A stretch of DNA of 64,000 nucleotides, from the IMG/VR virus record IMGVR_UViG_3300018012_000099. One strand, 5' to 3'. Positions 4,884 to 39,467 of this stretch are shown one piece after another. A program made the position numbers and the translations under genes. Origin of the DNA: a virus (Duplodnaviria; Caudoviricetes). A model generated the notes under the pieces. That model had not been told where the DNA came from. It was given only the letters and a program-made list of their open reading frames with translations, and ran no database searches. Numbering within the stretch: position 1 is the first letter of the stretch; every line of letters starts with the position of its first letter.

Positions 4884-5246
4884 ATGAAAGATCAAAACAA
4901 GAAACCAAGAAAAAACTTCAAAAGGGCGCCGAGAGGAGGTGAAATATTGCCAGTCGTAGTCAGCGATAAAAAAACTGTTGGTCCCGGCGAAGCACTCCAA
5001 GCTAAACCGCTTGAAGTTAAAGTATATGGGAACAATTTCGATAAAGCTCTTCGAGCTTTTCGAGCCCTCGTTCAAAAGGAACGAGTTTTGTCTTCTTATA
5101 AAGAAAAACAATCATATGAGAAGCCATCTGATAAACGTAGGAGAAAGCGTAACGAGTCTAAGAGAAAGCTTCTTGAAGTCCATAACAAAGGTCCCAATAC
5201 CTATGGATTCAGGAAGGGTAATAGGCGTAACGGTTCTCCAGAATAA
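4884..5246 (+). CDS. rpsU: Phage-encoded ribosomal protein bS21 homolog with N-terminal extension
   Basis: EVKVYGNNFDKALRAFRALVQKERVL...KQSYEKPSDKRRRKR matches the bS21 pattern (V..NE..D.AL.RF....G......R..YEKP...R.RK); start placed at ATG 4884. Confidence 0.8.
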   Translation: MKDQNKKPRKNFKRAPRGGEILPVVVSDKKTVGPGEALQAKPLEVKVYGNNFDKALRAFRALVQKERVLSSYKEKQSYEKPSDKRRRKRNESKRKLLEVHNKGPNTYGFRKGNRRNGSPE

Positions 5247-5260
5247 TCTCTGGAAAACAC

Positions 5261-5980
5261 ATGTCGGATAATTTAAAAGTAAAAACCTATAGAAATCGTA
5301 ATCGTCAAGCACCAGAAAAGTATGCTCCCTATACTCCACAATACCAAGTTTTGGGTGTGGATCCGGAGGAATACAAGAGTGCAGTTGTACCTGAAAATAC
5401 TCAGATAGCTGTACCAAGAGAGGTCGCTCAGCGTTCACGAAAGGTTGGCATGCGACAACCGTATGCTGAATCTGTACCTTCTCCCGTCGGTAGGGGTAGA
5501 GGACCGATTCCTAATGTTGGTAATAATGTAGAGCACACTTGGTCTAGTGTAGATGGCGATATCGTCGATGATTTAGACGGTCAAGCTTTAGATCCTAATC
5601 ACCCTATGGTTGATAATAACGATTACGTTAGTAATGTAGCCTTAGGGATTCCACAAGAGAATTTGCCTATGTTGGATGAAAGGAATAATCCACCACGTAA
5701 GAAGTTTGTTCAACAAGAAGTTCAAAGATCTTTTGAAGCTAAACCTGTGCAACCCGTATCTGAGGATCTATTTCCAATAGTTGCCGATCTAGAAGATGGC
5801 GCCTATCTACTTTTAGTAGAAGGGGTGTCAGTTTGTTCTGGTCCTAAAGAGGAAATAGAGGAACAGGCCAGAGCTTTGGTGTTCGGAGAACACGAAATGT
5901 GTGATGGTAATCCTGTTGCAGAAGAGGATATAATTATCATTAAGAGAATAACTATCAAAGTCGGTCTCTTTCTTGAATAA
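5261..5980 (+). CDS. Hypothetical protein, Pro/Gln-rich N-terminus and small globular C-terminal domain
   Basis: 239-aa ORF with RBS-like sequence upstream. Confidence 0.65.
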   Translation: MSDNLKVKTYRNRNRQAPEKYAPYTPQYQVLGVDPEEYKSAVVPENTQIAVPREVAQRSRKVGMRQPYAESVPSPVGRGRGPIPNVGNNVEHTWSSVDGDIVDDLDGQALDPNHPMVDNNDYVSNVALGIPQENLPMLDERNNPPRKKFVQQEVQRSFEAKPVQPVSEDLFPIVADLEDGAYLLLVEGVSVCSGPKEEIEEQARALVFGEHEMCDGNPVAEEDIIIIKRITIKVGLFLE

Positions 5981-5988
5981 CGAAGGTC

Positions 5989-6825
5989 ATGATGTCAGAA
6001 GAACCGCGTAAGGCTACGGATGTGCTATTAGAGATTGAAGCTAAATTAGACGCTTTGATAAAGAAAGTGGATGCTGGCGATCTCAATATTAGAGTGGTAT
6101 CTAATAAATTAGGTGAAGTAATGAAAGGCTTGGAGAAGATTCAGTCAGCTCCTCAGCAAAAAATTACTGTGGAAGCAGTGCAAAATCCTGTCCCTAATCA
6201 GGCGGCAGCTATCTTTGGGCAAATCCCTACCACCGATCCGGCTAGAGCAATACCTGTCACCGCCGAATCTAAATTACCGGTGGATGAGACTCCGCAAGGT
6301 TTTAGAAGAACTTCACGCCCTGAAAGTTACGCTGGCGACCAAACTTACCTTAAAAAGGAGGGTGTACCAGTCCCAACGAATCCATCATTTTTTGTACGTG
6401 GATCTAATGAAGGACCACCCCCAGGTCGTAGTGCTGGTGAGAATTTACCACAAACCCAGCCGCCTCCTAAAAAGGCAGCTCAACAACCGGCCCAACCACC
6501 ACAGCCCGCTAAGCAAATGCTGAAACAGCCAGCAGAAATGAATACTCATGATATAGTTCCGGTGGAGCAACGTGTGGTAGATAAAAATGGAAAGTCTGTC
6601 TTCTTGGCAGACGTAGAAATTGTGGATCTATCCTCGGGTGATCAGGTTTCCAAATCCAGAACTAATGGCACTGGTAAGTGGATGGCAGCACTACCCATAG
6701 GTCAATATCGAGTAACTATTAAGAAGCTCGAATCTTTGACCCGAGAAAAAGTAGAGTCCATTCAAACGGTTACAGTAGATGGAACCCAATCGCCCTTGAA
6801 GTTGCCCATGGTCATTATCAAGTAA
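5989..6825 (+). CDS. Hypothetical protein: coiled coil, Pro/Gln linker, C-terminal carboxypeptidase-regulatory-like (Ig/transthyretin) domain
   Basis: C-terminal RVVDKNGK...ADVEI...TNGTGKW...LPIGQYRVTI pattern. Confidence 0.6.
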   Translation: MMSEEPRKATDVLLEIEAKLDALIKKVDAGDLNIRVVSNKLGEVMKGLEKIQSAPQQKITVEAVQNPVPNQAAAIFGQIPTTDPARAIPVTAESKLPVDETPQGFRRTSRPESYAGDQTYLKKEGVPVPTNPSFFVRGSNEGPPPGRSAGENLPQTQPPPKKAAQQPAQPPQPAKQMLKQPAEMNTHDIVPVEQRVVDKNGKSVFLADVEIVDLSSGDQVSKSRTNGTGKWMAALPIGQYRVTIKKLESLTREKVESIQTVTVDGTQSPLKLPMVIIK

Positions 6826-6837
6826 GTGTAGGTTTCA

Positions 6838-7536
6838 ATGAAGTTTGATGTAATTGTGGCTGATTGTCCATGGCCATTCAAAGATTCTCTTAAAATGTCC
6901 GACGTCGCGCGTGGTGCTCGGTCGAACTACGACACCATGACAATTTCTGATATTAAGCAGCTCGACGTGCAGGGCGTTTGCAATCCTGCCGGGGCGGTGT
7001 TATGTTTATGGGTGCCGGGCTCCCTCCTTCAAGAGGGGCTGGACACTATGAAAGCTTGGGGCTTTAAACATAAACAAACTTATGTATGGGTCAAAACTAA
7101 GAAACACAGATTCCAGCGATTCATTAAGTGGCTTAAGAAAAGCATTCTAAAGCACCCGCAAGTTTGTTATGATCAGTTTGCTTACAAAAGAGCAATCAAC
7201 TCTGTCATAGACAACGTGCCCAATATTGACTTGAATGAAGAGCTGGCATTTGGTATGGGTCGTTTGTTTAGACAGACTCATGAAATTTGTTTGGTTGGGA
7301 CCAGTTCTAACTTCATTTACAAATTGTTACAGAACAAATCACAACGTTCTGTTTGTCTAGCTGAAAATCTGAAGCACTCAGCAAAACCCAACGATCTGCA
7401 AGAATCTTTGGAAATCATGTTTCCCAAGAGTCATAAATTAGAGATGTTTGCTAGACGAATACGTCCCGGATGGACTTGTTTAGGAAACGAAATAGATGGT
7501 AAAGATATCCGTGAGGCTCTTGCCGATCTAAAATAA
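6838..7536 (+). CDS. MT-A70 family N6-adenine methyltransferase
   Basis: FDVIVADCPW (DPPW-like), LCLWV, WGF...YVWVK, THEICLVG, HSAKP, KLEMFAR, GWTCLGNE. Confidence 0.85.
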   Translation: MKFDVIVADCPWPFKDSLKMSDVARGARSNYDTMTISDIKQLDVQGVCNPAGAVLCLWVPGSLLQEGLDTMKAWGFKHKQTYVWVKTKKHRFQRFIKWLKKSILKHPQVCYDQFAYKRAINSVIDNVPNIDLNEELAFGMGRLFRQTHEICLVGTSSNFIYKLLQNKSQRSVCLAENLKHSAKPNDLQESLEIMFPKSHKLEMFARRIRPGWTCLGNEIDGKDIREALADLK

Positions 7537-7548
7537 ACGGACGATGAA

Positions 7549-7821
7549 ATGAAACAAGATATAGTTATGTCTCTTATTCCTCTTTCCAAAGAAGACAAAG
7601 ATTTATTTCCATTCCAAGTTAGTGATGGGGTAATAATATCATCGTCAGATATTTTCTTTGAAGGTTTACGAGGTCAAGAGGCAACGGTAATCGCGATTGG
7701 TCGTGATTATTTTAGTGATATGAAAGTTGTACGAGTCATAGCACCCTATCATACTGTTCCCAATTATCCCGCGGATTTTGAGTGGGAAATAGTTCCAGAA
7801 TTATTAGAGAAATTAAAATAA
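7549..7821 (+). CDS. Hypothetical protein
   Basis: 90-aa ORF; no motif recognised. Confidence 0.55.
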   Translation: MKQDIVMSLIPLSKEDKDLFPFQVSDGVIISSSDIFFEGLRGQEATVIAIGRDYFSDMKVVRVIAPYHTVPNYPADFEWEIVPELLEKLK

Positions 7822-7842
7822 ACGGAGGTTAATGACACTATT

Positions 7843-8352
7843 ATGTCTCGCAAAGCACTGTTACTTAATGCGTCGTATGAGGTCCTGAGCTTCATACCCG
7901 AAAGGAAGATGTTCAAACTCTTGTTCAAAGACAAGGTAGAAGTAATATCTACCTGGGATGAAGTTGTTATCTGGGGTAATGGTAAGATTAAACAACCCTC
8001 TATTCTTCGCTTAAAAAGCCACGTCAAGCGCAATTATTTCAATGCCAATTTCAGTCGTAAAGCTTTGGTTAAAAGAGACAGAGGCACTTGTCAATATTGT
8101 GGTAAGAAATTAACCGCTTCCCAGATTACTATTGATCACGTGTTACCCAGGGCTCAAGGGGGCGTTACCTCTTTCGTCAATTGTGTGGTTTGCTGTCAGA
8201 TTTGTAATAATAAAAAAGCAGATAGGACGCCAGAGCAAGCGGGGATGATCTTACTTCGCAAGCCGACTCATCCGTCTTTTTCGGCGCATTACTATGTAGC
8301 TGATCCGCAGGAACATTGGTTTTCTGGTTGGGACGATTTTCTAAAATATTAA
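7843..8352 (+). CDS. McrA-like HNH endonuclease
   Basis: LLLNASYE N-terminus, RDRGTCQYCG, TIDHVLPRAQGG, NCVVCCQICNNKK. Confidence 0.9.
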   Translation: MSRKALLLNASYEVLSFIPERKMFKLLFKDKVEVISTWDEVVIWGNGKIKQPSILRLKSHVKRNYFNANFSRKALVKRDRGTCQYCGKKLTASQITIDHVLPRAQGGVTSFVNCVVCCQICNNKKADRTPEQAGMILLRKPTHPSFSAHYYVADPQEHWFSGWDDFLKY

Positions 8353-9044
8353 AAAGGATTGGTACGCAAAAATATTATCAGGATAATAAGTCCAAAATAC
8401 AAAAATATAAAACTGAATATTGGAAAGAAAATAAAGAAGAATTATATGAATATAAAAAAGAATGGCGCGAAACATATAGTAATGTGCTAAAGCACTGCGA
8501 TATTCACAATAAAGATTATTACTCGGAAGAGTGTCCAATATGTAGCGGTATACGCAATAAAAACTATAAAATGGAGCACAAAGAAGAAATAAAAGAGCAA
8601 CAAAAATTATACAGGCAAGAAAATAAAGACGAGATAAATGAATATTATAAAGATCGTAGAGAAAACGATCCGATATACAATCTTCGTCGTGTTATATCCA
8701 GCTCAATATACACTATGTTAAAATCGCAAAGTTCATCCAAAAATGGTAGTTCTATTCTTAATTTTCTTCCATATTCTATTCAAGAATTAAAAGATCATCT
8801 CGAAACCCAATTCGAATCTTGGATGAATTGGGACAATCAAGGCAAGTATCTTGCAGATAAGTGGGACGATAACGATCAGGCTACTTGGACTTGGCAGATA
8901 GATCATATAGTTCCCCAATCAGAATTACCATATATGTCTATGGAAGACGACAATTTCAAGAAGTGCTGGGCACTATCTAATCTTCGACCTTATTCGGCTA
9001 AACAAAATTTATTAGATGGCGTAAACAGGATAAGACACAAATAA
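8316..9044 (+). CDS. Free-standing HNH-type endonuclease, family copy 1 (start uncertain, TTG)
   Basis: HLETQFESWMNWDNQG...WQIDHIVP...CWALSNLRPYSAKQN. Confidence 0.75.
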   Translation: MVFWLGRFSKILKRIGTQKYYQDNKSKIQKYKTEYWKENKEELYEYKKEWRETYSNVLKHCDIHNKDYYSEECPICSGIRNKNYKMEHKEEIKEQQKLYRQENKDEINEYYKDRRENDPIYNLRRVISSSIYTMLKSQSSSKNGSSILNFLPYSIQELKDHLETQFESWMNWDNQGKYLADKWDDNDQATWTWQIDHIVPQSELPYMSMEDDNFKKCWALSNLRPYSAKQNLLDGVNRIRHK

Positions 9045-9053
9045 GGAGCCACT

Positions 9054-9263
9054 ATGAATTATGATGACAGGCAAGAAAGAGCAGAAATGTTGGTGAAAAC
9101 ATTTCGAGGTCATGGGTTAAAAATTTTTGATCTAAACGGAAAAAGTTATACTGGTAATCGGGTGGCTGATGAAATCGAGAATATGACCGATTTAGGTAAA
9201 AATCTTGTTGCAATTGCTGGAATAGTACTTCACGCAATAATGATTAAATTGAAAAGGGAATAA
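9054..9263 (+). CDS. Hypothetical protein
   Basis: 69 aa; AAGGAG RBS upstream. Confidence 0.6.
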   Translation: MNYDDRQERAEMLVKTFRGHGLKIFDLNGKSYTGNRVADEIENMTDLGKNLVAIAGIVLHAIMIKLKRE

Positions 9264-9305
9264 TACTTTTCATTACATTATTATTTCGGGCAATAATGCG
9301 GAATA

Positions 9306-9331
9306 CCTATATAGTTTCCCTGATATATAGG
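9306..9331. promoter_or_regulatory. Hairpin CCTATATA-N10-TATATAGG containing a TGATATAT motif
   Basis: Perfect 8-bp inverted repeat ending 8 nt before the 9339 start codon. Confidence 0.45.
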
Positions 9332-9338
9332 AAGCGCC

Positions 9339-9602
9339 ATGACCACGGTAAAAGCTTGTAATTGTATAGTGTGTGCGTGCGAGTTCAACCCAGAAGAACT
9401 CCAAAGCGTAGCGTTGTCTAAAATCAATGTTACTCGTTTTAAGATTTGTCAGGCTTGTTTAGATCAGTGTGATCCGGCTGAGGACTATCGTCAAGCACGC
9501 GAAATTGTTAGCTCTTACCTATGGTTTGCTGAAACTCGTGATCTATTCAAGGAAGCGTCTAATATTTTAGGAAACGTTGCTTCTACTAAGAAAAATTCAT
9601 AA
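9339..9602 (+). CDS. Small zinc-finger protein
   Basis: CIVC and CQAC pairs. Confidence 0.6.
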   Translation: MTTVKACNCIVCACEFNPEELQSVALSKINVTRFKICQACLDQCDPAEDYRQAREIVSSYLWFAETRDLFKEASNILGNVASTKKNS

Positions 9603-9749
9603 TTGAATGATTATGACAGTCGGATTATTCTCTTCTTGAGTTTCCTCTTCACGCTTTTTAGGTGGCGGAGGAACGAGTTCGATGTGTAGAGGCTCTGGCT
9701 TCCATTCTTTCTTTTTCTTCTCGTGGATAAAAGGAAAGTAATCGGTCAT
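9597..9749 (-). CDS. 50-aa small protein, the only supported minus-strand gene (below the ORF-track cutoff)
   Basis: GGAGG RBS, then MTDYFPFIHEKKKKEWKPEPLHIELVPPPPKKREEETQEENNPTVIIIQL*; fills an otherwise empty gap. Confidence 0.7.
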   Translation of the reverse strand: MTDYFPFIHEKKKKEWKPEPLHIELVPPPPKKREEETQEENNPTVIIIQL

Positions 9750-9790
9750 TAAACCTCCGGACAATATGTATATGTCGGAATATTGGTATC

Positions 9791-9991
9791 ATGATGTGTA
9801 GTTCATGCTCCAAGCTTGCCTTTTTGTATACTAAAAAACGTTGTATTCGTTGTCAAGGGGAAGTGCTTGTAACTGTTGCGGTTCTGTGTGAGTTTTGCTC
9901 CCTCACCGATAAGATTTGCTCTGTCTGTCTAAAAAAGACTACTGCATCTGTGCCTGCCAATCGAGGTTGTGGATGCGGTGGCAAGAAATAA
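9791..9991 (+). CDS. Cys-rich double zinc-ribbon microprotein
   Basis: Four CxxC pairs plus terminal GCGCGG in 66 aa. Confidence 0.65.
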   Translation: MMCSSCSKLAFLYTKKRCIRCQGEVLVTVAVLCEFCSLTDKICSVCLKKTTASVPANRGCGCGGKK

Positions 9992-10012
9992 GCTGGATAT
10001 ATAGGTAAGTGC

Positions 10013-10540
10013 ATGATTATTACCAATAACGAAGAACTGCTTAGAGTTAAATGTGAAGATGTTTTATCTGAAGAGATTGGAACACTGATTGAGACTCTAG
10101 AAAAAGAATTGGATTATGCCAATAGATTAGGTAAAGGTGGTATTGGATTAGCTGCTCCACAGATTGGTATTGCTAAGAAAATTGCTATTGTTAGATTAAA
10201 CAATGCAAAATTTGATTTGGTCAATGCTAAAATTCAACAGGGATTTGATCCAACTCTTTTTCAAGAGGAAGGATGCTTATCATTTCCGGGTCGTGTAGAA
10301 AATACCATCCGATTTCAAGAGGTTTATATTATCGACAATCTAATCTCTCCTCATCGTTTTGTGGCTACTGGGTTGTTGGCGGTAGTTTGCCAGCATGAAT
10401 TAGATCATGTTAACTCTACACTCTTTATGGACCGTATGGTGCCTAAGCCAGTGACGGTCGTTAAAACAGCTAAAGCAGGACCTAATGATCCTTGCCCTTG
10501 CCTTTCTGGCAAGAAATACAAGAAATGTTGCAAAAGGTAA
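10013..10540 (+). CDS. def: Peptide deformylase fused to a C-terminal SEC-C motif
   Basis: GIGLAAPQIG, EGCLS, QHELDH; C-terminal GPNDPCPCLSGKKYKKCC. Confidence 0.93.
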   Translation: MIITNNEELLRVKCEDVLSEEIGTLIETLEKELDYANRLGKGGIGLAAPQIGIAKKIAIVRLNNAKFDLVNAKIQQGFDPTLFQEEGCLSFPGRVENTIRFQEVYIIDNLISPHRFVATGLLAVVCQHELDHVNSTLFMDRMVPKPVTVVKTAKAGPNDPCPCLSGKKYKKCCKR

Positions 10541-10542
10541 TA

Positions 10543-10794
10543 ATGACCGAAAAGAAATCTCCCGTAGAATTTAGTTCTGATATTCTGTTAGCTGATACTT
10601 TATTAAGATTAACAGCTTTAGAGAAGCTTTTAATTCAAAAGGGGCTCATTACTAAAGATGAACTAAATGATTTGACAGCTGTTTTGGTTGAGAATGTGAC
10701 CAAAGTGATAATGGATAAGGTCAAATCATCTAAAGATTTAAATGATTTTGTGTCTTCTTTAGGTGGAGAAATTAACAAAGAGATTAAAAACTAA
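10543..10794 (+). CDS. Hypothetical helical protein
   Basis: ALEKLLIQKGLITKDEL motif; start placed at ATG 10543. Confidence 0.6.
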   Translation: MTEKKSPVEFSSDILLADTLLRLTALEKLLIQKGLITKDELNDLTAVLVENVTKVIMDKVKSSKDLNDFVSSLGGEINKEIKN

Positions 10795-11111: not shown

Positions 11112-11120
11112 GTTCCCTAA

Positions 11121-18673: not shown

Positions 18674-19381
18674 ATGGAAACGAAAATATGTAGAACATGT
18701 AAAATAGAAAAAGAGGTTTCGTTTTTTAGGCAGAGGCATAATAAAAAACGAAACAAAATATACCGCAATAACGAGTGTATTGAGTGTCAAAGATTATATT
18801 GGGAAACCGAAGAATATAAAAATAGTAGAAAAATTTATTATCAAGAAAATAAAATAGAAATAAATAAACAACATCGTGAGTATAATGTTCTACACATAGA
18901 AGAAAAAAAAGAAAGAAGTAAACTTTATTATCAAGATAATAAGGATTCTATAAGAATTGTTCAGAAACAATATATTAAAAGACGAAGAAAAAATGATGTG
19001 TCTTTTAGATTAGGAGCCAGCGTATCTAAATCTATCAATAGAGCCATCAAATTGAATGGTAGTTTGAAATCTGGGAAATCGACATTTAAATATTTACCAT
19101 ATTCCAAAAAAGACCTAAAGGAACATCTTGAAAGACAATTTGAACCGTGGATGACTTGGGATAATTATGGTATTTATGATAGTAATGTTTGGAATGATGA
19201 TGATCCAAATACTTGGACATGGAATATCGATCATGTTATTCCTCATTCAGAATTTAAGTATGCCTCTATGGAAGATAATGAATTCAAACAATGTTGGGCT
19301 TTATCTAATCTTCGTCCGTTATCTGCTAAACAGAATTGGTTAGAAGGAATAAATAGATCTAGACATAAAGGTGATAGGTAA
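18674..19381 (+). CDS. Free-standing HNH-type endonuclease, family copy 2
   Basis: N-terminal CRTC...CIEC; HLERQFEPWMTWDNYG...IDHVIP...CWALSNLRPLSAKQN. Confidence 0.8.
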   Translation: METKICRTCKIEKEVSFFRQRHNKKRNKIYRNNECIECQRLYWETEEYKNSRKIYYQENKIEINKQHREYNVLHIEEKKERSKLYYQDNKDSIRIVQKQYIKRRRKNDVSFRLGASVSKSINRAIKLNGSLKSGKSTFKYLPYSKKDLKEHLERQFEPWMTWDNYGIYDSNVWNDDDPNTWTWNIDHVIPHSEFKYASMEDNEFKQCWALSNLRPLSAKQNWLEGINRSRHKGDR

Positions 19382-20384: not shown

Positions 20385-20696
20385 ATGATTATTAAATTTA
20401 GTTCTAAGATTGAATTAAATGGTTGGCATCAAAATAGTTCTTATATGGACCCAATTTATGTCAGAAAACTGATACCATATGAAGATTATGATGAAGTAAT
20501 AGTAATATCAGTTAGACGCCATATAGCATCTATTGATAAATGTTATGCTAATTTCTATTCACCATTATCATTTTTACATAATTATTTCCCGCCCAATTTG
20601 AAAGAGCCTTTTTATATTGAGGGCAATCTAGATTTTGCTAAAAATTATGTTGATAATTTTTTGATTAGGATGAGTGGGCTCAGAGCTTTTCTCTGA
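20385..20696 (+). CDS. Hypothetical protein
   Basis: AT-rich ORF; start placed at ATG 20385. Confidence 0.45.
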   Translation: MIIKFSSKIELNGWHQNSSYMDPIYVRKLIPYEDYDEVIVISVRRHIASIDKCYANFYSPLSFLHNYFPPNLKEPFYIEGNLDFAKNYVDNFLIRMSGLRAFL

Positions 20697-20718
20697 TTAT
20701 AGTGATATATACGAAAGT

Positions 20719-21432
20719 ATGACTGTGCCATCACCCGTATGTAAATTGTGTGGAGAGACCGATGTTTCTCAATTTCGCCAACGAACGATCAGTGGGAAAA
20801 TGTATTATGTGAAATATTGTCGAGCATGTGAGGCAAAATTATCCAGAGAATATCATGCCGCCCACAAAGAAGAGCGCGCGCAATATCAAAAGAAATACAT
20901 AGCCGAAAACAAAGATATAGTCAGAGAGAAGAAAAAAGAATACGACAAAAACCACTATCCCCTTATTAAGGAAGATAAGGCTCTTTATGATAAAGAATAT
21001 GCTAAAAACAATAGAGATGTAATAAATAATAATAGAAAGAACAGAAGGAAAAATGATCCAACTTATAAATTGAGTCATTATATTTCCGGTAGAATACGAA
21101 AAATATTAGGCAAGTTTGGACACAAAAAGAAAGGTTCTTGTATTAATCATTTAGATTATTCTTTTCAGGAATTAAAAGAACATATCGAACAACAATTTGA
21201 ATCTTGGATGAATTGGGATAATCAGGGCGTATACGATCCAGAAACCTGGGATGATAATGATCCTTCCACTTGGAAATGGCAATTGGATCATATAATTCCA
21301 GTTTCTACTTTTAATTATACTTCTATGGAAGATGAAGAATTTAAAAAATGTTGGGCGCTCACCAATTTGAGACCCCTATCTGCAAAGCAAAACCATTTAG
21401 ATGGTGTGAAAAGAATTAGACATGGTAAATGA
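20719..21432 (+). CDS. Free-standing HNH-type endonuclease, family copy 3
   Basis: CKLC...CRAC; QFESWMNWDNQG...WQLDHIIP...CWALTNLRPLSAKQN; start placed at ATG 20719. Confidence 0.8.
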   Translation: MTVPSPVCKLCGETDVSQFRQRTISGKMYYVKYCRACEAKLSREYHAAHKEERAQYQKKYIAENKDIVREKKKEYDKNHYPLIKEDKALYDKEYAKNNRDVINNNRKNRRKNDPTYKLSHYISGRIRKILGKFGHKKKGSCINHLDYSFQELKEHIEQQFESWMNWDNQGVYDPETWDDNDPSTWKWQLDHIIPVSTFNYTSMEDEEFKKCWALTNLRPLSAKQNHLDGVKRIRHGK

Positions 21433-22216
21433 TCAGTTAGATTTCAGATTAAGTGTTTCCAAAGTCAAGACATTTAATCAATGTAAGAAACAATATGAGT
21501 TCAATTATATTGTTAAACTACCAAAGAAAGATCGTGATTACCATATTTTTGGTAAGTTCTGCCATCGCGTGCTGGAAGTGTTTCATAACTATTATTTAGA
21601 AGGTTGCTTGTTACCTTACAACATGTCCATGACTGACGCTTTCAAGGTAGCTTGGGCAGAATTTAAAGACAAGATGACTCCCGAAATGAAGAAGGAGTGC
21701 TGGCAATTAGTGGATAAATATTTGCGCATCGTCAGTAAGAATAAGGCAAACAATTTGCCTGCCAACGTCATCGCTTGCGAAAAAAGATTTGAGCTACCCC
21801 TGACGGAAAATATTATTTTAAATGGAGCAATTGACAGAATTCAGTTGGATGCCGATAATGTAGTGCACGTTTGTGATTATAAGACGATCAAAAACAAAAA
21901 ATACCTAAAAGACGACTGGTTCCAATTAATAACATATGCTTTTGTTATAGTCAACGAAGATCCGTCGATCGAGAAGGTGCGCGGTTCGTATATTCTTCTC
22001 CGACATGATTTTGAATATATTACTAAAGAATTTACTAAAAAGGAAATTCTCAAAGTCAAGAATCAGTATGAAAAATATGCAGAACAGATTTTAGCAGAAA
22101 AGAATTTTGAGCCAAGTCCGTCAGCTTTGTGCAATTTTTGTGATTTCTTAGATCACTGCCCGGCGGGCAAGAGTAAAGCATTTGGTCAAAGTATTTATGG
22201 TGAAGTAAGCTGGTAA
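21422..22216 (+). CDS. Cas4/AddB-like PD-(D/E)XK exonuclease with four-Cys Fe-S staple
   Basis: LSVSK...QC; GAIDRI...DYKT...QLITY; C-terminal CNFCDFLDHC. Confidence 0.85.
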   Translation: MVNDQLDFRLSVSKVKTFNQCKKQYEFNYIVKLPKKDRDYHIFGKFCHRVLEVFHNYYLEGCLLPYNMSMTDAFKVAWAEFKDKMTPEMKKECWQLVDKYLRIVSKNKANNLPANVIACEKRFELPLTENIILNGAIDRIQLDADNVVHVCDYKTIKNKKYLKDDWFQLITYAFVIVNEDPSIEKVRGSYILLRHDFEYITKEFTKKEILKVKNQYEKYAEQILAEKNFEPSPSALCNFCDFLDHCPAGKSKAFGQSIYGEVSW

Positions 22217-22453: not shown

Positions 22454-23701
22454 ATGGAAATCGAACTAAAAGAATTAGAACCGTGTAAATTGTCTGTCCA
22501 TGTTAAAGCAAATTTTCTGGAAATCTCGGACAAAAGAGTAGAAGTAGAAGGGGCTTTCAAAAAAGCGCCCGTTCCTGGTTTTCGTCCTGGTAAAGCATCG
22601 GCTGATGCCATTAGAATACACTATCGTCAGCAAATTGAAGATTCTTTGAAAAGAGCTTTGGCAGAAGATGCCTATCACAATGCTATTTTTGAAAAGAAGC
22701 TGCGCCCCCATGGTGCTCCCAAGTTCAATAGTTTTCTATTGGATGGCGGTTCTTTTACCTGTGAGTTTGAGTTATTTACCAAACCAGATTTTGAGATTTC
22801 TCCGTATCAAAATATGGAAATACCCAAGCCCGTTGAAGCGGAAAATGCTACCGAGGTAGCGGAGAAAATGCTACAAGAATTGCGCGTACGTTTGGGCGAT
22901 GTAGCGCCATATGCCGATACTGATTTCGTACAACAGGGTGACAATGTTATTTTGGATTATGAAGGATCTATTGATGGTGCCGCGGTACCGGGTTTGATGG
23001 GAACCGGAGAAATGATTACTATCGGCAATAATTTCATTCCAGATTTCGATTCTAACCTACTAGGTATGACCACGGGAGAAACCCGTGAGTTTGATATTCA
23101 TGCTCCAACGGAAAGCCTACCTTCTATCGCTGGTAAAACAGTACATTTTAAGGTAACTTTGACTACTGGTGCTAAGACTACGCCCTGCCCATTAAACGAT
23201 GAGTTGGCTACTAGGATGGGTAAAAAAGACTTTAATGAACTACGCGAGCATGTGCAGGCGGCTGCGACTGGACGTGTCGCTAACAATTTTAAGATGGCTT
23301 TGCATGATACCGTAGCTAAACGTTTGGTGGCTGACAATACTATCAATGTCCCTAATTGGATGGCTCTTTCTGAAGCGCGCTATCTGGCTCATCAATCTCA
23401 ACTAAATTGGGATGTGATGGTGGATACTGATAAAGAAAAGTTTTTAGAGATGGCTACTAAGAATGTCAAATTATCTTTAGTTCTAGATAAAATTAGAGAG
23501 CTAGAAATAGAATCGCAATTGAGCGATCAAGAAGTATTTGAAATCATCAAAGAAAATTTGGCTAGAACCAAAGTACAGAAGCCTTTGGATGAAGTCATTC
23601 AAGAAATGAATAGAACAGGGTATCTGCAGATTTTGTTCTCTCGTATTAGAGATGAGCACACCATGAATTACGTCACTAAATTAATTAAGGTTATTGAATA
23701 A
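22454..23701 (+). CDS. tig: Trigger factor
   Basis: VPGFRPGK ribosome-binding motif, FKBP-like domain (GDNVILDYEGSIDG...FIPDF..NLLGM..GETREF), helical C-domain. Confidence 0.9.
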   Translation: MEIELKELEPCKLSVHVKANFLEISDKRVEVEGAFKKAPVPGFRPGKASADAIRIHYRQQIEDSLKRALAEDAYHNAIFEKKLRPHGAPKFNSFLLDGGSFTCEFELFTKPDFEISPYQNMEIPKPVEAENATEVAEKMLQELRVRLGDVAPYADTDFVQQGDNVILDYEGSIDGAAVPGLMGTGEMITIGNNFIPDFDSNLLGMTTGETREFDIHAPTESLPSIAGKTVHFKVTLTTGAKTTPCPLNDELATRMGKKDFNELREHVQAAATGRVANNFKMALHDTVAKRLVADNTINVPNWMALSEARYLAHQSQLNWDVMVDTDKEKFLEMATKNVKLSLVLDKIRELEIESQLSDQEVFEIIKENLARTKVQKPLDEVIQEMNRTGYLQILFSRIRDEHTMNYVTKLIKVIE

Positions 23702-28675: not shown

Positions 28676-29341
28676 ATGAAACTGATTGATGGTAACAAGA
28701 AAAAGTGTAAAAAATGTGGTCGTGTCAAAAATATTAGTGAATTTTCTAAACAAAATGAATATTATAGTGCTAGATGTAAATCTTGTCTAAATAAAAGTAA
28801 AAGGTTAAAATACAAGAAAAATCCCGTTCCTTTTAGATTGGCTGGCAAAACGTATCGTGATAGTCATAAAGATAATAAATCACCCTACAATAGACAATAT
28901 TATCTCAATAATAGAATCAAAATTAGGAACTATCAAAATAGCTATTATGCCAATAAAATTAAAAATGTAGCTTATAGATTAAGGCGTAATATATCTAGGT
29001 TAGTGGCGCACATGCTGCATTCAAAAGACACTAATAAAAATGGTTTTTCTGTTTTACAATTTCTTTCTTTTTCGATTAAAGAATTAAAAGAGCATTTAGA
29101 GCGACAGTTTGAACCATGGATGAGTTGGGCAAATTATGGCTCTTATGATCATGATACTTGGGATGATAATGATTCAACTACCTGGACTTGGCAGTTAGAT
29201 CATATTATCCCACAATCAATATTGCCTTACACGTCTATGACGGACGAGAACTTTCAGAAGTGTTGGGCGTTATCCAATTTGCGTCCGTTATCCGCTAAAC
29301 AAAATTTGTTGGATGGCGCCACTAGGATACGTCATAGGTGA
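28676..29341 (+). CDS. Free-standing HNH-type endonuclease, family copy 4
   Basis: CKKC...CKSC; HLERQFEPWMSWANYG...WQLDHIIP...CWALSNLRPLSAKQN. Confidence 0.8.
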   Translation: MKLIDGNKKKCKKCGRVKNISEFSKQNEYYSARCKSCLNKSKRLKYKKNPVPFRLAGKTYRDSHKDNKSPYNRQYYLNNRIKIRNYQNSYYANKIKNVAYRLRRNISRLVAHMLHSKDTNKNGFSVLQFLSFSIKELKEHLERQFEPWMSWANYGSYDHDTWDDNDSTTWTWQLDHIIPQSILPYTSMTDENFQKCWALSNLRPLSAKQNLLDGATRIRHR

Positions 29342-32928: not shown

Positions 32929-32933
32929 TTAAG

Positions 32934-32950
32934 TTTGTCGAGAAAAAGTT
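32934..32950 (+). promoter_or_regulatory. TTTGTCGAGAAAAAGTT motif, copy A
   Basis: Exact 17-nt match to 35364..35380; intergenic, upstream of the uvsY-like/recA genes. Confidence 0.65.
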
Positions 32951-32982
32951 CGTTTAATTCAATATTATAGATAGGAAGACAG

Positions 32983-33492: not shown

Positions 33493-33503
33493 TTGGAGAG
33501 AAA

Positions 33504-34697: not shown

Positions 34698-35025
34698 TAT
34701 TGCAATAGGAACAGCTAATTTGCCAACCGGAACCCCAATACTCAAGAAACCCGTCTATCTAATAGTGCTAGTAGATGGTTCTGGTAAGACAGCGACAGAG
34801 ACGAATTTTATTGCCACCGATCGTCCAGATCTATCCTACGGTTTTGTTTCAGTAAGGGGAATTTATTGCGAAGCTGATAAAGAAGAGATTGTAAAGAACT
34901 TTGCAGAGCTTGTTAATAAAGCTCCGAAAGATACGGTATTAGAAATGGTATTCCCGGCTCATAGAATTAAGAGCATCAGAAGTTTAGTTTTTAATGCTGT
35001 CAAACCTACTATGGTTAGTAGATAA
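34687..35025 (+). CDS. Hypothetical protein
   Basis: ATG 34687 overlaps the recA stop region. Confidence 0.6.
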   Translation: MPTDIAIGTANLPTGTPILKKPVYLIVLVDGSGKTATETNFIATDRPDLSYGFVSVRGIYCEADKEEIVKNFAELVNKAPKDTVLEMVFPAHRIKSIRSLVFNAVKPTMVSR

Positions 35026-35045
35026 TTAAGAAAGTGAGATAGAAC

Positions 35046-35363
35046 ATGTCATCTAAGAGAAAGTCAACAAGTGTCCGTAGCAGCACCACTCAAATCAGCG
35101 TCGATGATGTTGTATTAAGTGGTATTCTAACGGTGTTGGTTAGAAGCGATGTAAGAGGTTGGTCTGGTACAATGACGGATCTGCAAACAGCTCTCGTCAG
35201 AGTATTGGGCAAGAGACGCTCTTTGGTTCTCCCTGGTTCACCAGGGGCTCTAAGAGTCGTAGTTAATAGGGTGGTCAATCGACTACGCACCCGTGGTATC
35301 AGCGTAAGATTTACTCGTACGCCTGATCATGCAAGAACTCGTTTCGTAAAATTTTCTAGATAA
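35046..35363 (+). CDS. Small basic protein resembling a stand-alone winged-helix domain
   Basis: WSGTMTDL...LPGSPGAL...NRLRTRGISVRF.R pattern. Confidence 0.5.
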   Translation: MSSKRKSTSVRSSTTQISVDDVVLSGILTVLVRSDVRGWSGTMTDLQTALVRVLGKRRSLVLPGSPGALRVVVNRVVNRLRTRGISVRFTRTPDHARTRFVKFSR

Positions 35364-35380
35364 TTTGTCGAGAAAAAGTT
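35364..35380 (+). promoter_or_regulatory. TTTGTCGAGAAAAAGTT motif, copy B
   Basis: Exact match to 32934..32950; upstream of HNH copy 5 and the SSB gene. Confidence 0.65.
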
Positions 35381-35401
35381 TAGCGCAATATATTTATAAG
35401 C

Positions 35402-36073
35402 ATGACAAAAACATGCTCTAAATGTAAAATAGAAAAAGATCTATCCACTTTCTCAAAAAGTAAGAGAGGTAAAGGTGGATACAGAGCAGAGTGTAAAGAT
35501 TGCGAAAAACTGTATCGTAAAATTAATAGTAAAAGAAGGCAGGAATATAAAAAGTCTTATTATGAAGATAATAAGACTCAAATAAAAGAATATCAGAAAA
35601 ATAATCAGGAAGAAATAAGAAAATACAAACAGGAATGGTGTAAGAAAAATACTGAAAAATCTAAAATACATAGAAGAGCTTATTTGAATGATCGTTATAA
35701 AAGCGATCCACTTTTTAGATTACACAGGATAGTTTCAAAAGCAACTTATGAGAGCTTGCGAAAAATAGATAGTAGTAAAAATAATCAATCAGTTTTAAAG
35801 TTTTTACCTTTCGAATCTTGGGCAAAATTGAAAAATCATATAGAAAAACAGTTTGAACCCTGGATGACTTGGGATAATCAAGGTAAATATGATCCAAAAA
35901 CATGGAACGATAATGATCAATCTACATGGACTTGGCAGCTGGATCATATCATCCCGCAAAGTAGGTTCAAGTATAGCTCGATGAATGATGAAGAGTTTAG
36001 AAAATGTTGGGCGTTAGATAATCTTCGTCCATATCCATCTAAACATAATGTAACAGAAAAAGATAGAAGATAA
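35402..36073 (+). CDS. Free-standing HNH-type endonuclease, family copy 5
   Basis: CSKC...CKDC; QFEPWMTWDNQG...WQLDHIIP...CWALDNLRPY. Confidence 0.8.
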   Translation: MTKTCSKCKIEKDLSTFSKSKRGKGGYRAECKDCEKLYRKINSKRRQEYKKSYYEDNKTQIKEYQKNNQEEIRKYKQEWCKKNTEKSKIHRRAYLNDRYKSDPLFRLHRIVSKATYESLRKIDSSKNNQSVLKFLPFESWAKLKNHIEKQFEPWMTWDNQGKYDPKTWNDNDQSTWTWQLDHIIPQSRFKYSSMNDEEFRKCWALDNLRPYPSKHNVTEKDRR

Positions 36074-36090
36074 TATCAATAGGAGATCAA

Positions 36091-36816
36091 ATGAGTACAT
36101 TTGGAGAAGTAAGCTGGAATGATGATGTTTTCGCCGGCGAAAATAAGAAACAAACAAATAGTAAGGACCTCTTCCTTCGTCTCAGTGATGGAGATAATGA
36201 GATGAGAATTGTCACCCAACCTTTTCAATACTTGGTTCACAAGTACAAGAAGGAAGGTGATGCTGGATTCGGACAGAAAATTAATTGTTCCGCTATTCAC
36301 GGAAGTTGCCCACTCTGTGCGTTGGGTGATAAAGCTAAGCCACGTTGGCTGCTCGGTGTAATCAGCAAGAGTGGCGCTACATCTGGCACCTATAAGATCC
36401 TGGATATTTCTTTCGCTGTTTTCGGGCAAATCCGCAAGTATGCAAGAAACACCAAGACTTGGGGTGATCCAACCAAGTACGACATCAACATTGTCGTCAA
36501 TAAGAACGCTGACCCAATCAGCTACTACCAAGTTCAACCAATTCCTAAGAGCGCACTAACTGCTGAAGAGCAGAAGGTTCGTGATGAGAAGGTGGACATG
36601 GATGACCTGAAGCGCAGAGTAACTCCACCTACCGCTGATGTTGTGCAGAAGAGAATGGATAAGATCAACGGTGTTGCTACCGACGCTTCTGTCAATGGTA
36701 AGAAGACTGCTGCTGCCTCAAAGGTTGCCTCTAAGGCTACTACTCCGGCAGTTAGCATGACTGATGATGAAGATTTGGAAAATTCTTTTCCATCTTATGA
36801 CGAGCAACAATCATAA
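36091..36816 (+). CDS. Single-stranded DNA-binding protein (T4 gp32-like)
   Basis: FLRLSDG.NEMRI, H...C...CPLC zinc site, acidic C-terminal tail; located in the recombination cluster. Confidence 0.75.
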   Translation: MSTFGEVSWNDDVFAGENKKQTNSKDLFLRLSDGDNEMRIVTQPFQYLVHKYKKEGDAGFGQKINCSAIHGSCPLCALGDKAKPRWLLGVISKSGATSGTYKILDISFAVFGQIRKYARNTKTWGDPTKYDINIVVNKNADPISYYQVQPIPKSALTAEEQKVRDEKVDMDDLKRRVTPPTADVVQKRMDKINGVATDASVNGKKTAAASKVASKATTPAVSMTDDEDLENSFPSYDEQQS

Positions 36817-36838
36817 GATCGTTTCTGCTTCCTGAGTA

Positions 36839-36870
36839 AAAGGCTTCAAGGATAATACTTTGAAGCCTTT
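36839..36870. terminator. Intrinsic terminator-like hairpin after the SSB gene
   Basis: AAAGGCTTCAA-N10-TTGAAGCCTTT, an 11-bp perfect stem followed by T-rich sequence. Confidence 0.7.
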
Positions 36871-36894
36871 CTAGTTTTATCGATAGGAGTTAAT

Positions 36895-37275
36895 GTGGGA
36901 TATAGGACTCAAAGAATTACCGATCGTTTCAAATACGAAAGGGACAAAGAACGTAAACAGGAAAGAACAGAAAATCGTAATAAACAACATATGAAATTAT
37001 GGAATGTGGCTACATTTAGTTGGATAGGAAAGTCTTTTGAAACTGTACAAAATCCTATTTTCATGTCTTTTGTTAGCACAATTGCTACATTTTTAGCCGC
37101 CTATTTCTGTTTTGGTCTCGTATGGTGGAAGTTTGGGCTAATAGCTTCTGCTCCTTATATATTACAATTATCCATTTGGCTGATAAGGAAGTTTGTTCTA
37201 AATGTCAGTCGCATGTTAAAGTGGTGGGATCGTTTTTATGACTGGTGTAATAGAAAAAATTCCGGTCTAGAATAA
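36895..37275 (+). CDS. Hypothetical membrane protein
   Basis: Two hydrophobic segments; GTG start 5 nt after AGGAG. Confidence 0.55.
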   Translation: MGYRTQRITDRFKYERDKERKQERTENRNKQHMKLWNVATFSWIGKSFETVQNPIFMSFVSTIATFLAAYFCFGLVWWKFGLIASAPYILQLSIWLIRKFVLNVSRMLKWWDRFYDWCNRKNSGLE

Positions 37276-37324
37276 CCGATTGTAGTATTTTCGGCAACTT
37301 CTACTAATATTTTTTCATCTGTGT

Positions 37325-37969
37325 ATGATTAAACGAGTAATTAGCATAGGTGAGCCGCAAGAGCCACGACAATGTCCAGTTTGCAAAAGAAAATTGCCAA
37401 TTCAGCACTTTATAGATACTGTCAATTTATTTAAGTTGTGCGAAGAGTGTCGAGAAAAGGGACGTATAGCTAATGCTAAAAGAAAAGAAGCACGATCGAA
37501 ACAAGCCAAAGAGCATTATCAAGTTCACAAAGAAGATATTAGCAAACGCAACAAAGAGTGGCGAAAGAAAAACAAAAATAAATTAAGTGAGTACGAAAAA
37601 AGTGATTTCAGAAAACAAAAAAATAAAGAGTGGAGAGAGCAAAAAAGAGTAGAAGATCGTTTTAGATTTGTTTGGTACGCTGCGAAGAGACGAGCAAAAG
37701 CTGCTAACGTTCCCTTCACCATAAGTAAGCGGAATATTATCGATATATTCCCTTCAGATGGGAAGTGTCCGATGTTAGGTATAGAGCTACAGTTTAACAA
37801 TAAGAAGTCATGCGATAACTCGCCATCCTTGGACAGAATTATTCCGAGCGTGGGATATGTGCCCGGCAATATACAACTCATCTCTTACAGAGCCAATAGG
37901 ATCAAGAACGATGCTAGCCTCGAAGAGCTAAAAAGTATTGTAGCTTTTCTTGAGCGAGGCGTCAAATGA
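37325..37969 (+). CDS. HNH/endonuclease VII-like homing endonuclease
   Basis: CPVC...CEEC; CPMLG...SPSLDRIIP..GYVPGNIQLISYRANRIKN. Confidence 0.8.
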   Translation: MIKRVISIGEPQEPRQCPVCKRKLPIQHFIDTVNLFKLCEECREKGRIANAKRKEARSKQAKEHYQVHKEDISKRNKEWRKKNKNKLSEYEKSDFRKQKNKEWREQKRVEDRFRFVWYAAKRRAKAANVPFTISKRNIIDIFPSDGKCPMLGIELQFNNKKSCDNSPSLDRIIPSVGYVPGNIQLISYRANRIKNDASLEELKSIVAFLERGVK

Positions 37970-38514
37970 AGAGAGTGCTTGGCTTCGACGTGTCCAGCTC
38001 GACGATCGGATATTGTGTATTAGAAGTTAGCGATAGCAACGATATTCAATTCATTTTATGCAATTATATTAAGCCTATCAAGAAGGGCAGTATCATTGAG
38101 CGTATAGTGCATACTCGTGATGTTATTCAGAGTATTATTGATCAAGTAAAACCAGATTATATTGCCATTGAAGATATCATTCAATTTATGGCTGGTGCAT
38201 CTACTGCAAAAACAATTATCATGTTGACCAGTTTCAATAGGATGATTAGTTTAGTAGCTTATGATTATTTGAAGAAATGTCCATCACTATATAGTGTTAT
38301 GACAATTCGTCATGGGTTAAAAATTAATAAGATTTTACCTAAGAAGGAAGAGATTCCTGAATTGGTAGCTAAGCACCTAAAGATTACGTTTCCCTATCTC
38401 TTTAACAAAAAGGGCAAAATTAAGGTGGAGAGTTACGATATGGCGGATGGTGTAGCGGTAGCACTCTACCACGCTCTCGTTCTCACCCAACGCATTAAGG
38501 TCAAGAAAAAATGA
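37966..38514 (+). CDS. ruvC: RuvC-like Holliday junction resolvase
   Basis: VLGFDVSSSTIGY, IAIED, DMADGVAVA. Confidence 0.85.
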   Translation: MKRVLGFDVSSSTIGYCVLEVSDSNDIQFILCNYIKPIKKGSIIERIVHTRDVIQSIIDQVKPDYIAIEDIIQFMAGASTAKTIIMLTSFNRMISLVAYDYLKKCPSLYSVMTIRHGLKINKILPKKEEIPELVAKHLKITFPYLFNKKGKIKVESYDMADGVAVALYHALVLTQRIKVKKK

Positions 38515-39467
38515 AATTATCTGAAGCTTATTCAATATTAGAAATACCCCAGACAGCCACGCCAGAGGAAGCTAAGAAGAAGTACCGAGAACTTGCTAAA
38601 AAGCTTCATCCAGACGTCAATAAAGCGCCCGATGCCGAAGCCAAGTTTAAAAAGATCAACGAAGCCTATCAGATTATTGAATCAGGTGAAGAGACCGATC
38701 TTCCTACTGGTAACCCTTTCAATCGTAGCTATGATCCCTTTCGTAATCCATTTGATCCTTTTAGTTCATCTAGAAAACAATATTATGCTGGAAACATAAG
38801 TGTTCAGCTTACCATTTCTTTTAAAGATTCAGTTCAAGGAGTAAAGAAGGAAATAAAATACTCTCGTCAAATCAAATGCCCACATTGTCATGGAAGTGGT
38901 AATAAGCCCATTAATAATGGTTGTAAGAAATGTAGTGGTCGTGGTCAAACTACGGTACGTCAAGGTGGAGCAGTTTATATCCAAACTTGCTCGGAGTGTA
39001 TGGGCAGAAGCAAAACTGTTCCCTGTACCGAATGTAATAATGCTGGCGTATTAAGTAGTGAAGCGTCGGTACACGTTTCGATACCCCCAGCGGTCGTAGA
39101 TGGTAATATTTTGCGTCTTCAAAGTATGGGTAATTTTGCAGGAACCTTGATGGGGCTACAAGATCAATATACAGACGTGCATGTACATATACACGTGACT
39201 CCAGAAGAGGGTCTAAAACTAGTAGGTAAAGATATAGTGTCAGATTTAAATATTTCTCTATTAGATGCTTTGCGTGGTTGTACTCGAAAAATCAAATCTA
39301 TTGATGGTAATATGTCGATAACAATAGCTGATGGTACAAAAAACAAAGACGAAGTAGTTTTATCAGTAGGAGATAATAATAGTGTCAAGCATCGCGTCAT
39401 TATCAATGTAGAATATCCTATCAATTTGGACAAATTGATTGATGTCTTACTTGAAGAGGAAAATTAA
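38511..39467 (+). CDS. dnaJ: DnaJ chaperone
   Basis: J domain with HPD, four CxxCxGxG-like repeats, C-terminal substrate-binding domain. Confidence 0.93.
   Translation: MKLSEAYSILEIPQTATPEEAKKKYRELAKKLHPDVNKAPDAEAKFKKINEAYQIIESGEETDLPTGNPFNRSYDPFRNPFDPFSSSRKQYYAGNISVQLTISFKDSVQGVKKEIKYSRQIKCPHCHGSGNKPINNGCKKCSGRGQTTVRQGGAVYIQTCSECMGRSKTVPCTECNNAGVLSSEASVHVSIPPAVVDGNILRLQSMGNFAGTLMGLQDQYTDVHVHIHVTPEEGLKLVGKDIVSDLNISLLDALRGCTRKIKSIDGNMSITIADGTKNKDEVVLSVGDNNSVKHRVIINVEYPINLDKLIDVLLEEEN

What the first reader, a model, noticed from the sequence alone, without database searches (positions are those of the whole stretch)
4884..39467. Near-complete nascent-chain processing kit: bS21, PDF-SEC-C, trigger factor, DnaJ
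Seen: genes for translation initiation (bS21), N-terminal deformylation (PDF), exit-tunnel chaperoning (trigger factor) and downstream folding (DnaJ) occur in one phage window. Established: PDF and trigger factor both act at the ribosomal tunnel exit; phage bS21 and phage PDF are each known separately. Inference: the phage re-equips host ribosomes at initiation and at the exit tunnel for high-flux late protein synthesis.
Basis: partly seen in the sequence, partly recalled or inferred. Interest (0 to 1): 0.65.

Follow-up and report, generated by a model that had tools for sequence, protein, structure and literature searches.

The report
Jumbo phage's own protein-maturation factors
A widespread group of uncultured giant bacterial viruses keeps intact copies of the three factors that meet a new protein as it leaves the ribosome (deformylase, methionine aminopeptidase, trigger factor), and its deformylase carries a SecA-type metal-binding tail in place of the usual ribosome-docking helix; none of this has been tested in the laboratory.

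Summary
bS21 (4884-5246), PDF-SEC-C (10013-10540), trigger factor (22454-23701) and DnaJ (38511-39467) are intact genes of a jumbo phage of the published Judaphage group (about 430-480 kb).

All 33 relatives that span the region carry the four in the same order (one with broken frames, probably assembly errors), under purifying selection (dN/dS 0.06-0.15). About 45 neighbouring core genes are equally conserved and the four are not clustered (P=0.59), so this is core genome, not an operon.

A type I methionine aminopeptidase lies 100-140 kb past the terminase in 7/7 near-complete relatives; I could not check this phage. DnaK, GrpE, GroEL and SRP54 were not found. Two sister-lineage contigs keep the replication backbone but lack the four genes.

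Best reading (0.6): phage PDF, MAP and trigger factor supplement host ribosomes. PDF's docking helix is replaced by a SecA-type metal-binding tail, a module known to bind ribosomes. Late timing, selectivity for phage proteins and DnaJ's role are unshown.

The parts
4884..5246 (+). bS21, 120 aa, with a ~40-aa basic N-terminal extension and a basic C-terminal extension
   Evidence: PF01165 and TIGR00030 above cut-off; basic extensions in nearly all of 28 orthologues, most with a KGG(E/D) motif (RGGE here); dN/dS 0.145
10013..10540 (+). Peptide deformylase fused to a C-terminal SEC-C (SecA-type metal-binding) domain, 175 aa
   Evidence: PF01327 + PF02810; motifs GIGLAAPQ, EGCLS, QHELDH kept in 119-120 of 120 homologues; no C-terminal helix after residue 133 in the model, where confidence is low
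10475..10534 (+). SEC-C / SecA metal-binding motif (residues 155-174), C-x-C-x8-C-C, strongly basic
   Evidence: matches SecA MBD structures 1sx0, 1tm6, 1ozb at E 1e-6 to 3e-5; present in 120/120 homologues, net charge of the last 32 aa +5 to +9
9996..10002 (+). G(A/T)TATAT promoter-like motif 17 nt before the PDF start
   Evidence: same position in a part of the orthologues; also before the portal, PD-(D/E)XK and RuvC genes; total count in the window not above chance
22454..23701 (+). Three-domain trigger factor, 415 aa
   Evidence: TIGR00115 above cut-off; AF2 model and Foldseek match to E. coli TF; dN/dS 0.063
22577..22600 (+). TF ribosome-binding signature GFRPGKAS (residues 42-49)
   Evidence: G42 and R44 120/120, K47 117/120, F43 108/120; terminal Pro variable; G42 and R44 54/55 in the deep family
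38511..39467 (+). DnaJ co-chaperone (HPD at 33-35, four CxxC, C domain), overlapping the RuvC stop by 4 nt and upstream of the primase genes
   Evidence: Pfam; HPD in 33 of 35 orthologous frames; dN/dS 0.13
21422..22216 (+). Context: PD-(D/E)XK nuclease, upstream neighbour of TF throughout the lineage
   Evidence: same neighbour annotated for TF homologues at 28-30% identity
25065..28592 (+). Context: DNA polymerase III alpha, downstream neighbour of TF
   Evidence: synteny
37966..38514 (+). Context: RuvC resolvase, directly upstream of DnaJ
52909..56756 (+). Context: terminase large subunit and portal (phage identity, clade marker)
   Evidence: PHROGs 675 and 16240; 70-85% identity to about 80 IMG/VR contigs

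Best explanation
These are old, vertically inherited core genes of Judaphage-group jumbo phages that add phage-made copies of the ribosome-associated maturation factors during infection. Steps: (1) bS21 with basic extensions joins host 30S subunits and supports initiation [inferred]. (2) PDF removes the formyl group [catalytic motifs shown intact] and reaches the tunnel exit through a basic SecA-type metal-binding tail that stands where the E. coli docking helix stands [architecture shown, docking inferred]. (3) A type I MAP encoded elsewhere removes methionine [shown in relatives, not seen in this phage]. (4) Trigger factor docks on uL23 through its signature loop and acts mainly as a holdase, with weak or no prolyl-isomerase activity [signature shown, binding and loss of PPIase inferred]. 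DnaJ borrows host DnaK and is only loosely part of this. The likely purpose is capacity: keeping maturation of ~600 phage proteins going when the host's own factors become limiting. The genes do not form one operon or a dedicated late module.
For: All four genes in the same order in 14/14 spanning records of the first, almost wholly terminase-selected set and 19/19 TF-selected records. MAP above the TIGR00500 cut-off with metal-ligand motifs, in 7/7 records at least 90% complete and 15 records in all. dN/dS 0.06-0.15, like the replication genes. PDF motifs and SEC-C kept in 120 homologues. TF docking loop kept down to ~30% identity, and the ribosome-binding domain is the best-conserved TF domain (0.83 against 0.75-0.78). 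The SecA MBD alone co-sediments with ribosomes and binds near uL23 (PMC6620043). The E. coli PDF docks through its C-terminal helix (PMC12690207). PDF, MAP and TF act in sequence at the exit (PMC8185961). Other translation genes (IF3 4/7, EF-Ts 1/3) are patchy while these are fixed. Sister contigs G040 and G043 keep the replication backbone but lack the four genes, so the backbone does not need them.
Against: About 45 unrelated genes are just as conserved and the four are not clustered. No DnaK, GrpE, GroEL or SRP54 found. TF and DnaJ are fixed inside replication cassettes. G042 has TF and DnaJ without PDF or bS21 nearby. Other phage PDFs work in vivo with no docking tail at all (PMC5591237), so the SEC-C tail need not be a ribosome anchor. 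The host is unknown and there are no expression or binding data.
Confidence: 0.6

Rival explanations
1. Independent proteostasis genes with off-ribosome jobs. TF is a post-translational holdase or assembly chaperone for large phage replication or virion proteins. DnaJ recruits host DnaK to remodel the phage replication-initiation complex, as DnaJ does for lambda P. PDF and MAP act post-translationally. They co-occur only because all are core genes.
For: TF always lies between a PD-(D/E)XK nuclease and DNA polymerase, and DnaJ next to RuvC and upstream of primase. No clustering. Tandem ClpP genes are equally fixed (7/7), which points to general proteostasis. The set splits in distant relatives. 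The lambda precedent is from my own knowledge.
Against: The TF docking residues G42, R44 and K47 are kept across the deep family while the PPIase pocket has drifted. PDF, MAP and TF are all fixed although MAP lies over 100 kb away. G040 and G043 keep an intact replication block without TF or DnaJ.
Confidence: 0.25
2. Selective takeover. Phage bS21, TF and PDF-SEC-C displace the host factors (and SecA or SRP, which share the uL23 site), so that phage mRNAs and nascent chains are favoured and host protein export or maturation is impaired.
For: The SecA MBD binds near uL23, the shared docking site of TF, SRP and SecA. bS21 extensions are proposed to aid competitive binding (PMC7162821). bS21 is expressed late in other phages (PMC9723584).
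Against: Phage genes use ordinary Shine-Dalgarno signals (TAAGGA enriched upstream), so no special initiation is needed. All enzymes look catalytically intact rather than dominant-negative. PDF, MAP and TF have broad substrate ranges.
Confidence: 0.1
3. Backup against host defence or host deficiency. The phage copies replace host factors that are destroyed or inhibited in abortive-infection responses, or by natural PDF inhibitors such as actinonin.
For: Accessory PDFs on mobile elements confer resistance to PDF inhibitors (PMC12690207). Relatives carry ~40 tRNA genes and other translation genes.
Against: I know of no defence system that removes TF, PDF or MAP. Fixation across a deep clade fits a constitutive need better than an arms race, and dN/dS shows no acceleration.
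Confidence: 0.05

Closest known systems
Translation-related genes of huge phages; Judaphage clade (Al-Shayeb et al. 2020, PMC7162821)
   Same: Same group: the Judaphage genome SR-VP_PHAGE_40_16 is annotated with DnaJ, trigger factor, PDF and S21 in the same order, plus MAP about 150 kb from DnaJ. The TF of GD_PHAGE_CIR_35_878 is visibly close to the window's by eye. rpS21 with basic N-terminal extensions and PDF are discussed in the text.
   Different: The main text never mentions trigger factor, DnaJ or chaperones. I found no paper on phage trigger factor, on the PDF-MAP-TF trio or on the PDF-SEC-C fusion in the library searched.
Bacterial PDF, MAP and trigger factor cascade at the ribosomal exit (E. 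coli; PMC8185961)
   Same: Same three activities; catalytic motifs and the TF docking signature are kept.
   Different: PDF lacks the basic alpha-3 helix and has SEC-C instead. TF has lost the signature Pro in most members and the Tyr equivalent to Y221 (0/120 close homologues). No SRP54 or DnaK system was found.
Phage PDFs of cyanophage S-SSM7 and Vibrio phage Vp16 (PMC3660681, PMC5591237)
   Same: Phage-encoded PDF with the three catalytic motifs and without the C-terminal docking helix.
   Different: Those are simply truncated. Here a linker and a basic metal-binding domain are added and kept in 120/120 homologues; the three best ESM Atlas clusters with this architecture are 95-97% viral.
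bS21 phages of Bacteroidetes (Chen et al. 2022, PMC9723584)
   Same: Phage bS21 conserved across a clade.
   Different: There bS21 lies among structural genes on the opposite strand and late expression was measured. Here it lies on the same strand in the replication block, has long extensions, and has no expression data.
SecA C-terminal metal-binding domain (PMC6620043)
   Same: Same CxCx8C(C/H) motif and basic residues; the isolated MBD binds ribosomes near uL23.
   Different: Fused here to a deformylase instead of a translocase ATPase; binding of this copy is untested, and SEC-C also binds SecB.

Membership tests
Trigger factor (TIGR00115) | Three domains: ribosome-binding N domain, FKBP domain, C domain | tested here: met
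Trigger factor (TIGR00115) | Ribosome-binding signature GFRxGxxP | tested here: met
   GFRPGKAS; G, R, K near-invariant; last Pro replaced by Ser here and in most close homologues
Trigger factor (TIGR00115) | Intact PPIase pocket (F198, Y221 and neighbours in E. coli numbering, from my own knowledge) | tested here: not met
   F198 and F232 kept, but the Y221 equivalent is absent in 120/120 close homologues and F177 is Val/Ile/Leu; the PPIase domain is dispensable for chaperone function
Trigger factor (TIGR00115) | Binds uL23 on ribosomes and chaperones nascent chains | not testable with these tools
   needs co-sedimentation or complementation
Peptide deformylase | Motifs GxGxAAxQ, EGCLS, QHExDH | tested here: met
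   120, 120 and 119 of 120 homologues
Type 1B PDF | C-terminal basic alpha-helix that docks on uL22 | tested here: not met
   replaced by a linker and SEC-C
Ribosomal protein bS21 | PF01165 / TIGR00030 core above cut-off | tested here: met
Ribosomal protein bS21 | Incorporation into 30S subunits | not testable with these tools
   needs ribosome proteomics
Class A DnaJ | J domain with HPD, zinc finger, C domain | tested here: met
   only 2-3 of the 4 repeats are full CxxCxGxG, and the score is below the TIGR02349 equivalog cut-off
DnaK-DnaJ-GrpE system | Own DnaK and GrpE encoded | tested here: not met
   HSP70 0/10, GrpE 0/5 large records
Type I methionine aminopeptidase (relatives only) | TIGR00500 above cut-off and metal-ligand motifs | tested here: met
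   presence in the window's own genome could not be tested
Judaphage clade | Clusters with published Judaphage genomes in a terminase tree | tested here: inconclusive
   published sequences could not be loaded; assignment rests on shared gene order, visibly similar TF and neighbour sequences in the supplement, and IMG contig Ga0134123_10000001 (terminase 72% identical) sitting in that clade in a published tree
Co-regulated late module ('kit') | Clustering or one shared late transcription unit | tested here: not met
   span P=0.59; the shared upstream motif also precedes replication genes

The most novel reading that the evidence does not exclude
This phage lineage has built its own exit-tunnel processing line (PDF, MAP, TF) and re-wired deformylase docking: a SecA-type metal-binding domain replaces the uL22-binding helix and tethers PDF near uL23. 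That would change the normal competition between PDF, MAP, TF, SRP and SecA in favour of phage cytosolic proteins. It would be the first virus-encoded ribosome-docking chaperone and a second mode of PDF docking.
Probability: 0.3. Interest if true: 0.75.

Novelty: new variant of a known kind. Interest (0 to 1): 0.5.

Why it matters
Phage control of translation has been discussed mainly at initiation, tRNA supply and termination. A lineage that fixes PDF, MAP and trigger factor as core genes points to co-translational maturation as a further bottleneck for very large phages. The genes can be tested directly in E. coli def, map, tig/dnaK and rpsU mutants. The PDF-SEC-C fusion also offers a natural test of whether the SecA metal-binding domain is a portable ribosome tether.

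Tried and rejected
No own genome is held and the 212-kb ENA contig of this phage is not searchable. MAP was therefore not confirmed in this phage: no recognisable own copy among the 120 best MAP homologues, and the metagenome scan did not return its contig. Complex prediction of the TF N domain with E. coli uL23 gave no verdict and is not used as evidence. No trigger factor of this family in cultured GenBank phages; only 24-32% matches, mostly unannotated human-gut contigs, which I take to be host-type. GTDB scan gave one 23% match, so no host assignment. Rfam found nothing in the window. ESM Atlas gave no family for the small gene after TF. Rejected: 'single operon or cluster'; 'bacterial contamination' (terminase, portal and fixed synteny in 33 viral records); 'decaying morons' (dN/dS); 'complete folding kit' (no DnaK, GrpE, GroEL, SRP54). 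The G(A/T)TATAT motif cannot date expression: it precedes the portal but also RuvC and the PD-(D/E)XK nuclease, and its window count is not above chance. The DnaE tree is the quick version with long branches and is used only to show that G040, G042 and G043 lie outside the main clade.
Full report
Observation. The window is a dense, single-strand-coded jumbo-phage segment with terminase and portal genes at 52.9-56.8 kb. The four genes are real and intact: bS21 4884-5246, PDF with a C-terminal SEC-C motif 10013-10540, three-domain trigger factor 22454-23701 (model and fold match to E. coli TF) and DnaJ 38511-39467. Between them lie an MT-A70 methylase, Mre11/Rad50-like genes, a PD-(D/E)XK nuclease, DNA polymerase III alpha, RecA, an SSB-like gene, RuvC and several homing-type endonucleases.

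Identity of the phage. The terminase finds about 80 IMG/VR contigs at 70-85% identity, the largest 430-450 kb. The supplement of Al-Shayeb et al. 2020 (PMC7162821) holds genomes of the same group, named Judaphage. SR-VP_PHAGE_40_16 is annotated with DnaJ, trigger factor, PDF and S21 in the same order, and with a methionine aminopeptidase. The paper's text discusses rpS21 and PDF but not trigger factor, DnaJ or chaperones. The host is unknown.

Co-occurrence. In 20 records (19 chosen by terminase, one by TF), all 14 that span the region have the four genes in the same order; the other six end too early. In 19 further records chosen by TF, bS21, PDF and DnaJ are present in 19. One record, G036, has broken frames in both TF and DnaJ, probably assembly errors. 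Several records are near-duplicates, so the independent number is lower than 33. But about 45 other window genes are just as conserved and syntenic, and the four are no closer together than four random core genes (P=0.59). Co-occurrence here shows core-genome status, not a module.

What the rest of the genome adds. A type I methionine aminopeptidase (TIGR00500 above cut-off, metal-ligand motifs intact) lies about 100-140 kb beyond the terminase in 7 of 7 records at least 90% complete and in 15 records in all; the first-set records without it end before that position. PDF, MAP and TF are the three factors that act in sequence at the bacterial tunnel exit (PMC8185961), so relatives encode the whole trio. 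I could not confirm MAP in this phage itself. HSP70 and GroEL were absent from 10 large records, GrpE and SRP54 from 5. IF3 (4 of 7) and EF-Ts (1 of 3) are patchy, two tandem ClpP genes are fixed (7 of 7), and the complete genome G013 has about 40 tRNA calls.

Deeper relatives as a control. Sister-lineage contigs (terminase ~43%) keep the replication backbone in nearly the same order. G040 (222 kb, 66% complete) and G043 lack TF, full-length DnaJ, PDF and bS21; G042 has a divergent TF and DnaJ but no PDF or bS21 in the part held. These are fragments and few, so this shows only that the backbone can exist without the set and that the set is not indivisible. The TF family itself is deep: over 100 clusters at 50% identity rank close to the query, and three sampled members at 28-35% identity keep TF just upstream of DNA polymerase, two of them with an annotated PD-(D/E)XK neighbour.

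Are the proteins functional? Median dN/dS is 0.145 (bS21), 0.074 (PDF), 0.063 (TF), 0.130 (DnaJ) and 0.126 (MAP), against 0.06-0.11 for replication and packaging genes; dS is high (1.1-1.6) and some genes have few pairs. PDF keeps its three catalytic motifs in 119-120 of 120 homologues. TF keeps G42, R44 and K47 of the docking signature, with the last Pro variable, and its N domain is the best conserved. The PPIase pocket has drifted: the Tyr matching E. coli Y221 is missing in all 120 close homologues, which suggests a holdase with weak isomerase activity (inference; that domain is dispensable). DnaJ keeps HPD in 33 of 35 frames, so it should stimulate host DnaK. bS21 has basic extensions at both ends, as noted for huge phages.

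The PDF-SEC-C fusion. E. coli PDF docks through a basic C-terminal helix (PMC12690207), and characterised phage PDFs simply lack it (PMC3660681, PMC5591237). Here the helix is replaced by a linker and a CxCx8CC motif that matches solved SecA metal-binding domains. It is present in 120 of 120 homologues with net charge +5 to +9, and the three best ESM Atlas clusters with this architecture are 95-97% viral. The isolated SecA domain co-sediments with ribosomes, needs its metal ligands to do so, and binds near uL23 (PMC6620043). The simplest inference is a substitute ribosome tether. It is untested; SEC-C also binds SecB, and tail-less phage PDFs work in vivo.

Timing. No expression data were obtainable. 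A G(A/T)TATAT motif without a conserved -35 element sits at fixed distances before the portal gene (51 of 58 orthologues), and before PDF, the PD-(D/E)XK-TF cassette and the RuvC-DnaJ cassette in a part of the orthologues. It may be a phage promoter class, but it also precedes replication genes and its window count is not above chance, so 'late' remains unshown. bS21 has a different conserved upstream sequence.

Mechanism and verdict. Most likely (0.6) the phage supplements host ribosomes with its own PDF, MAP and TF, plus bS21, to keep protein maturation going; DnaJ uses host DnaK and may equally serve replication. Rivals are off-ribosome proteostasis roles (0.25), selective takeover (0.1) and backup against defence or inhibitors (0.05). 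Shown: identity, intactness, conservation, synteny, selection, the fusion architecture, MAP in relatives. Inferred: ribosome binding, purpose, timing. This scan reported the same set on another genome (e1-5392239); I had found MAP before reading that note and tested its IF3 and ClpP leads afterwards. Class: new variant of a known kind; interest 0.5.

Noticed in passing
window:24963-25048:+: Conserved structured element in the gap before the DNA polymerase gene: a long stem with an invariant CCC bulge closing a junction with two hairpins. In 25 relatives 96.6% of cells pair and 13 of 24 pairs show compensatory change (0/500 shuffles; slid controls 29-44%). No Rfam match and no earlier scan note. 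Candidate cis-regulatory RNA or translational operator of dnaE; deserves its own study.
   Followed up: partly
window:9322, 9996, 11094, 28662, 54811: (T)G(A/T)TATAT motif with no conserved -35 region at fixed spacing before several genes across the clade; candidate phage promoter, perhaps read with the sigma-70 region-4 protein at 41840-42295.
   Followed up: partly
window:4858-4878: Conserved sequence AAGGTTAAAA(C/T)(G/A)GGTT between the AAA ATPase stop and the bS21 start in all 13 orthologues inspected; possible regulatory site.
   Followed up: no
window:23715-24309: Two small genes of about 100 and 92 aa follow TF even in relatives at 28-35% TF identity; no family found for either.
   Followed up: partly
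G013:217515-218653 and orthologues: Two tandem ClpP genes 4-11 kb upstream of bS21 in 19 of 22 records (7/7 near-complete), just outside this window.
   Followed up: partly
window:49490-51208: CCA/poly(A)-polymerase-family nucleotidyltransferase, conserved also in the sister lineage.
   Followed up: no
window:12220-12846 and 39818-40585: Primase appears split into a CHC2 zinc-finger gene and a Toprim gene 27 kb apart, in the sister lineage too.
   Followed up: no
window:8316-9044, 18674-19381, 20674-21432, 28676-29341, 35402-36073: Five related HNH-like endonuclease genes inserted between core genes at positions not shared with relatives; probably mobile.
   Followed up: no
G040:152230-160799 and G043:17397-26605: In the TF-less sister phages the TF slot holds a three-gene cassette ending in a 2100-2450 aa protein of unknown type.
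   Followed up: no
G010:345888-346289: A second, divergent PDF in one relative.
   Followed up: no
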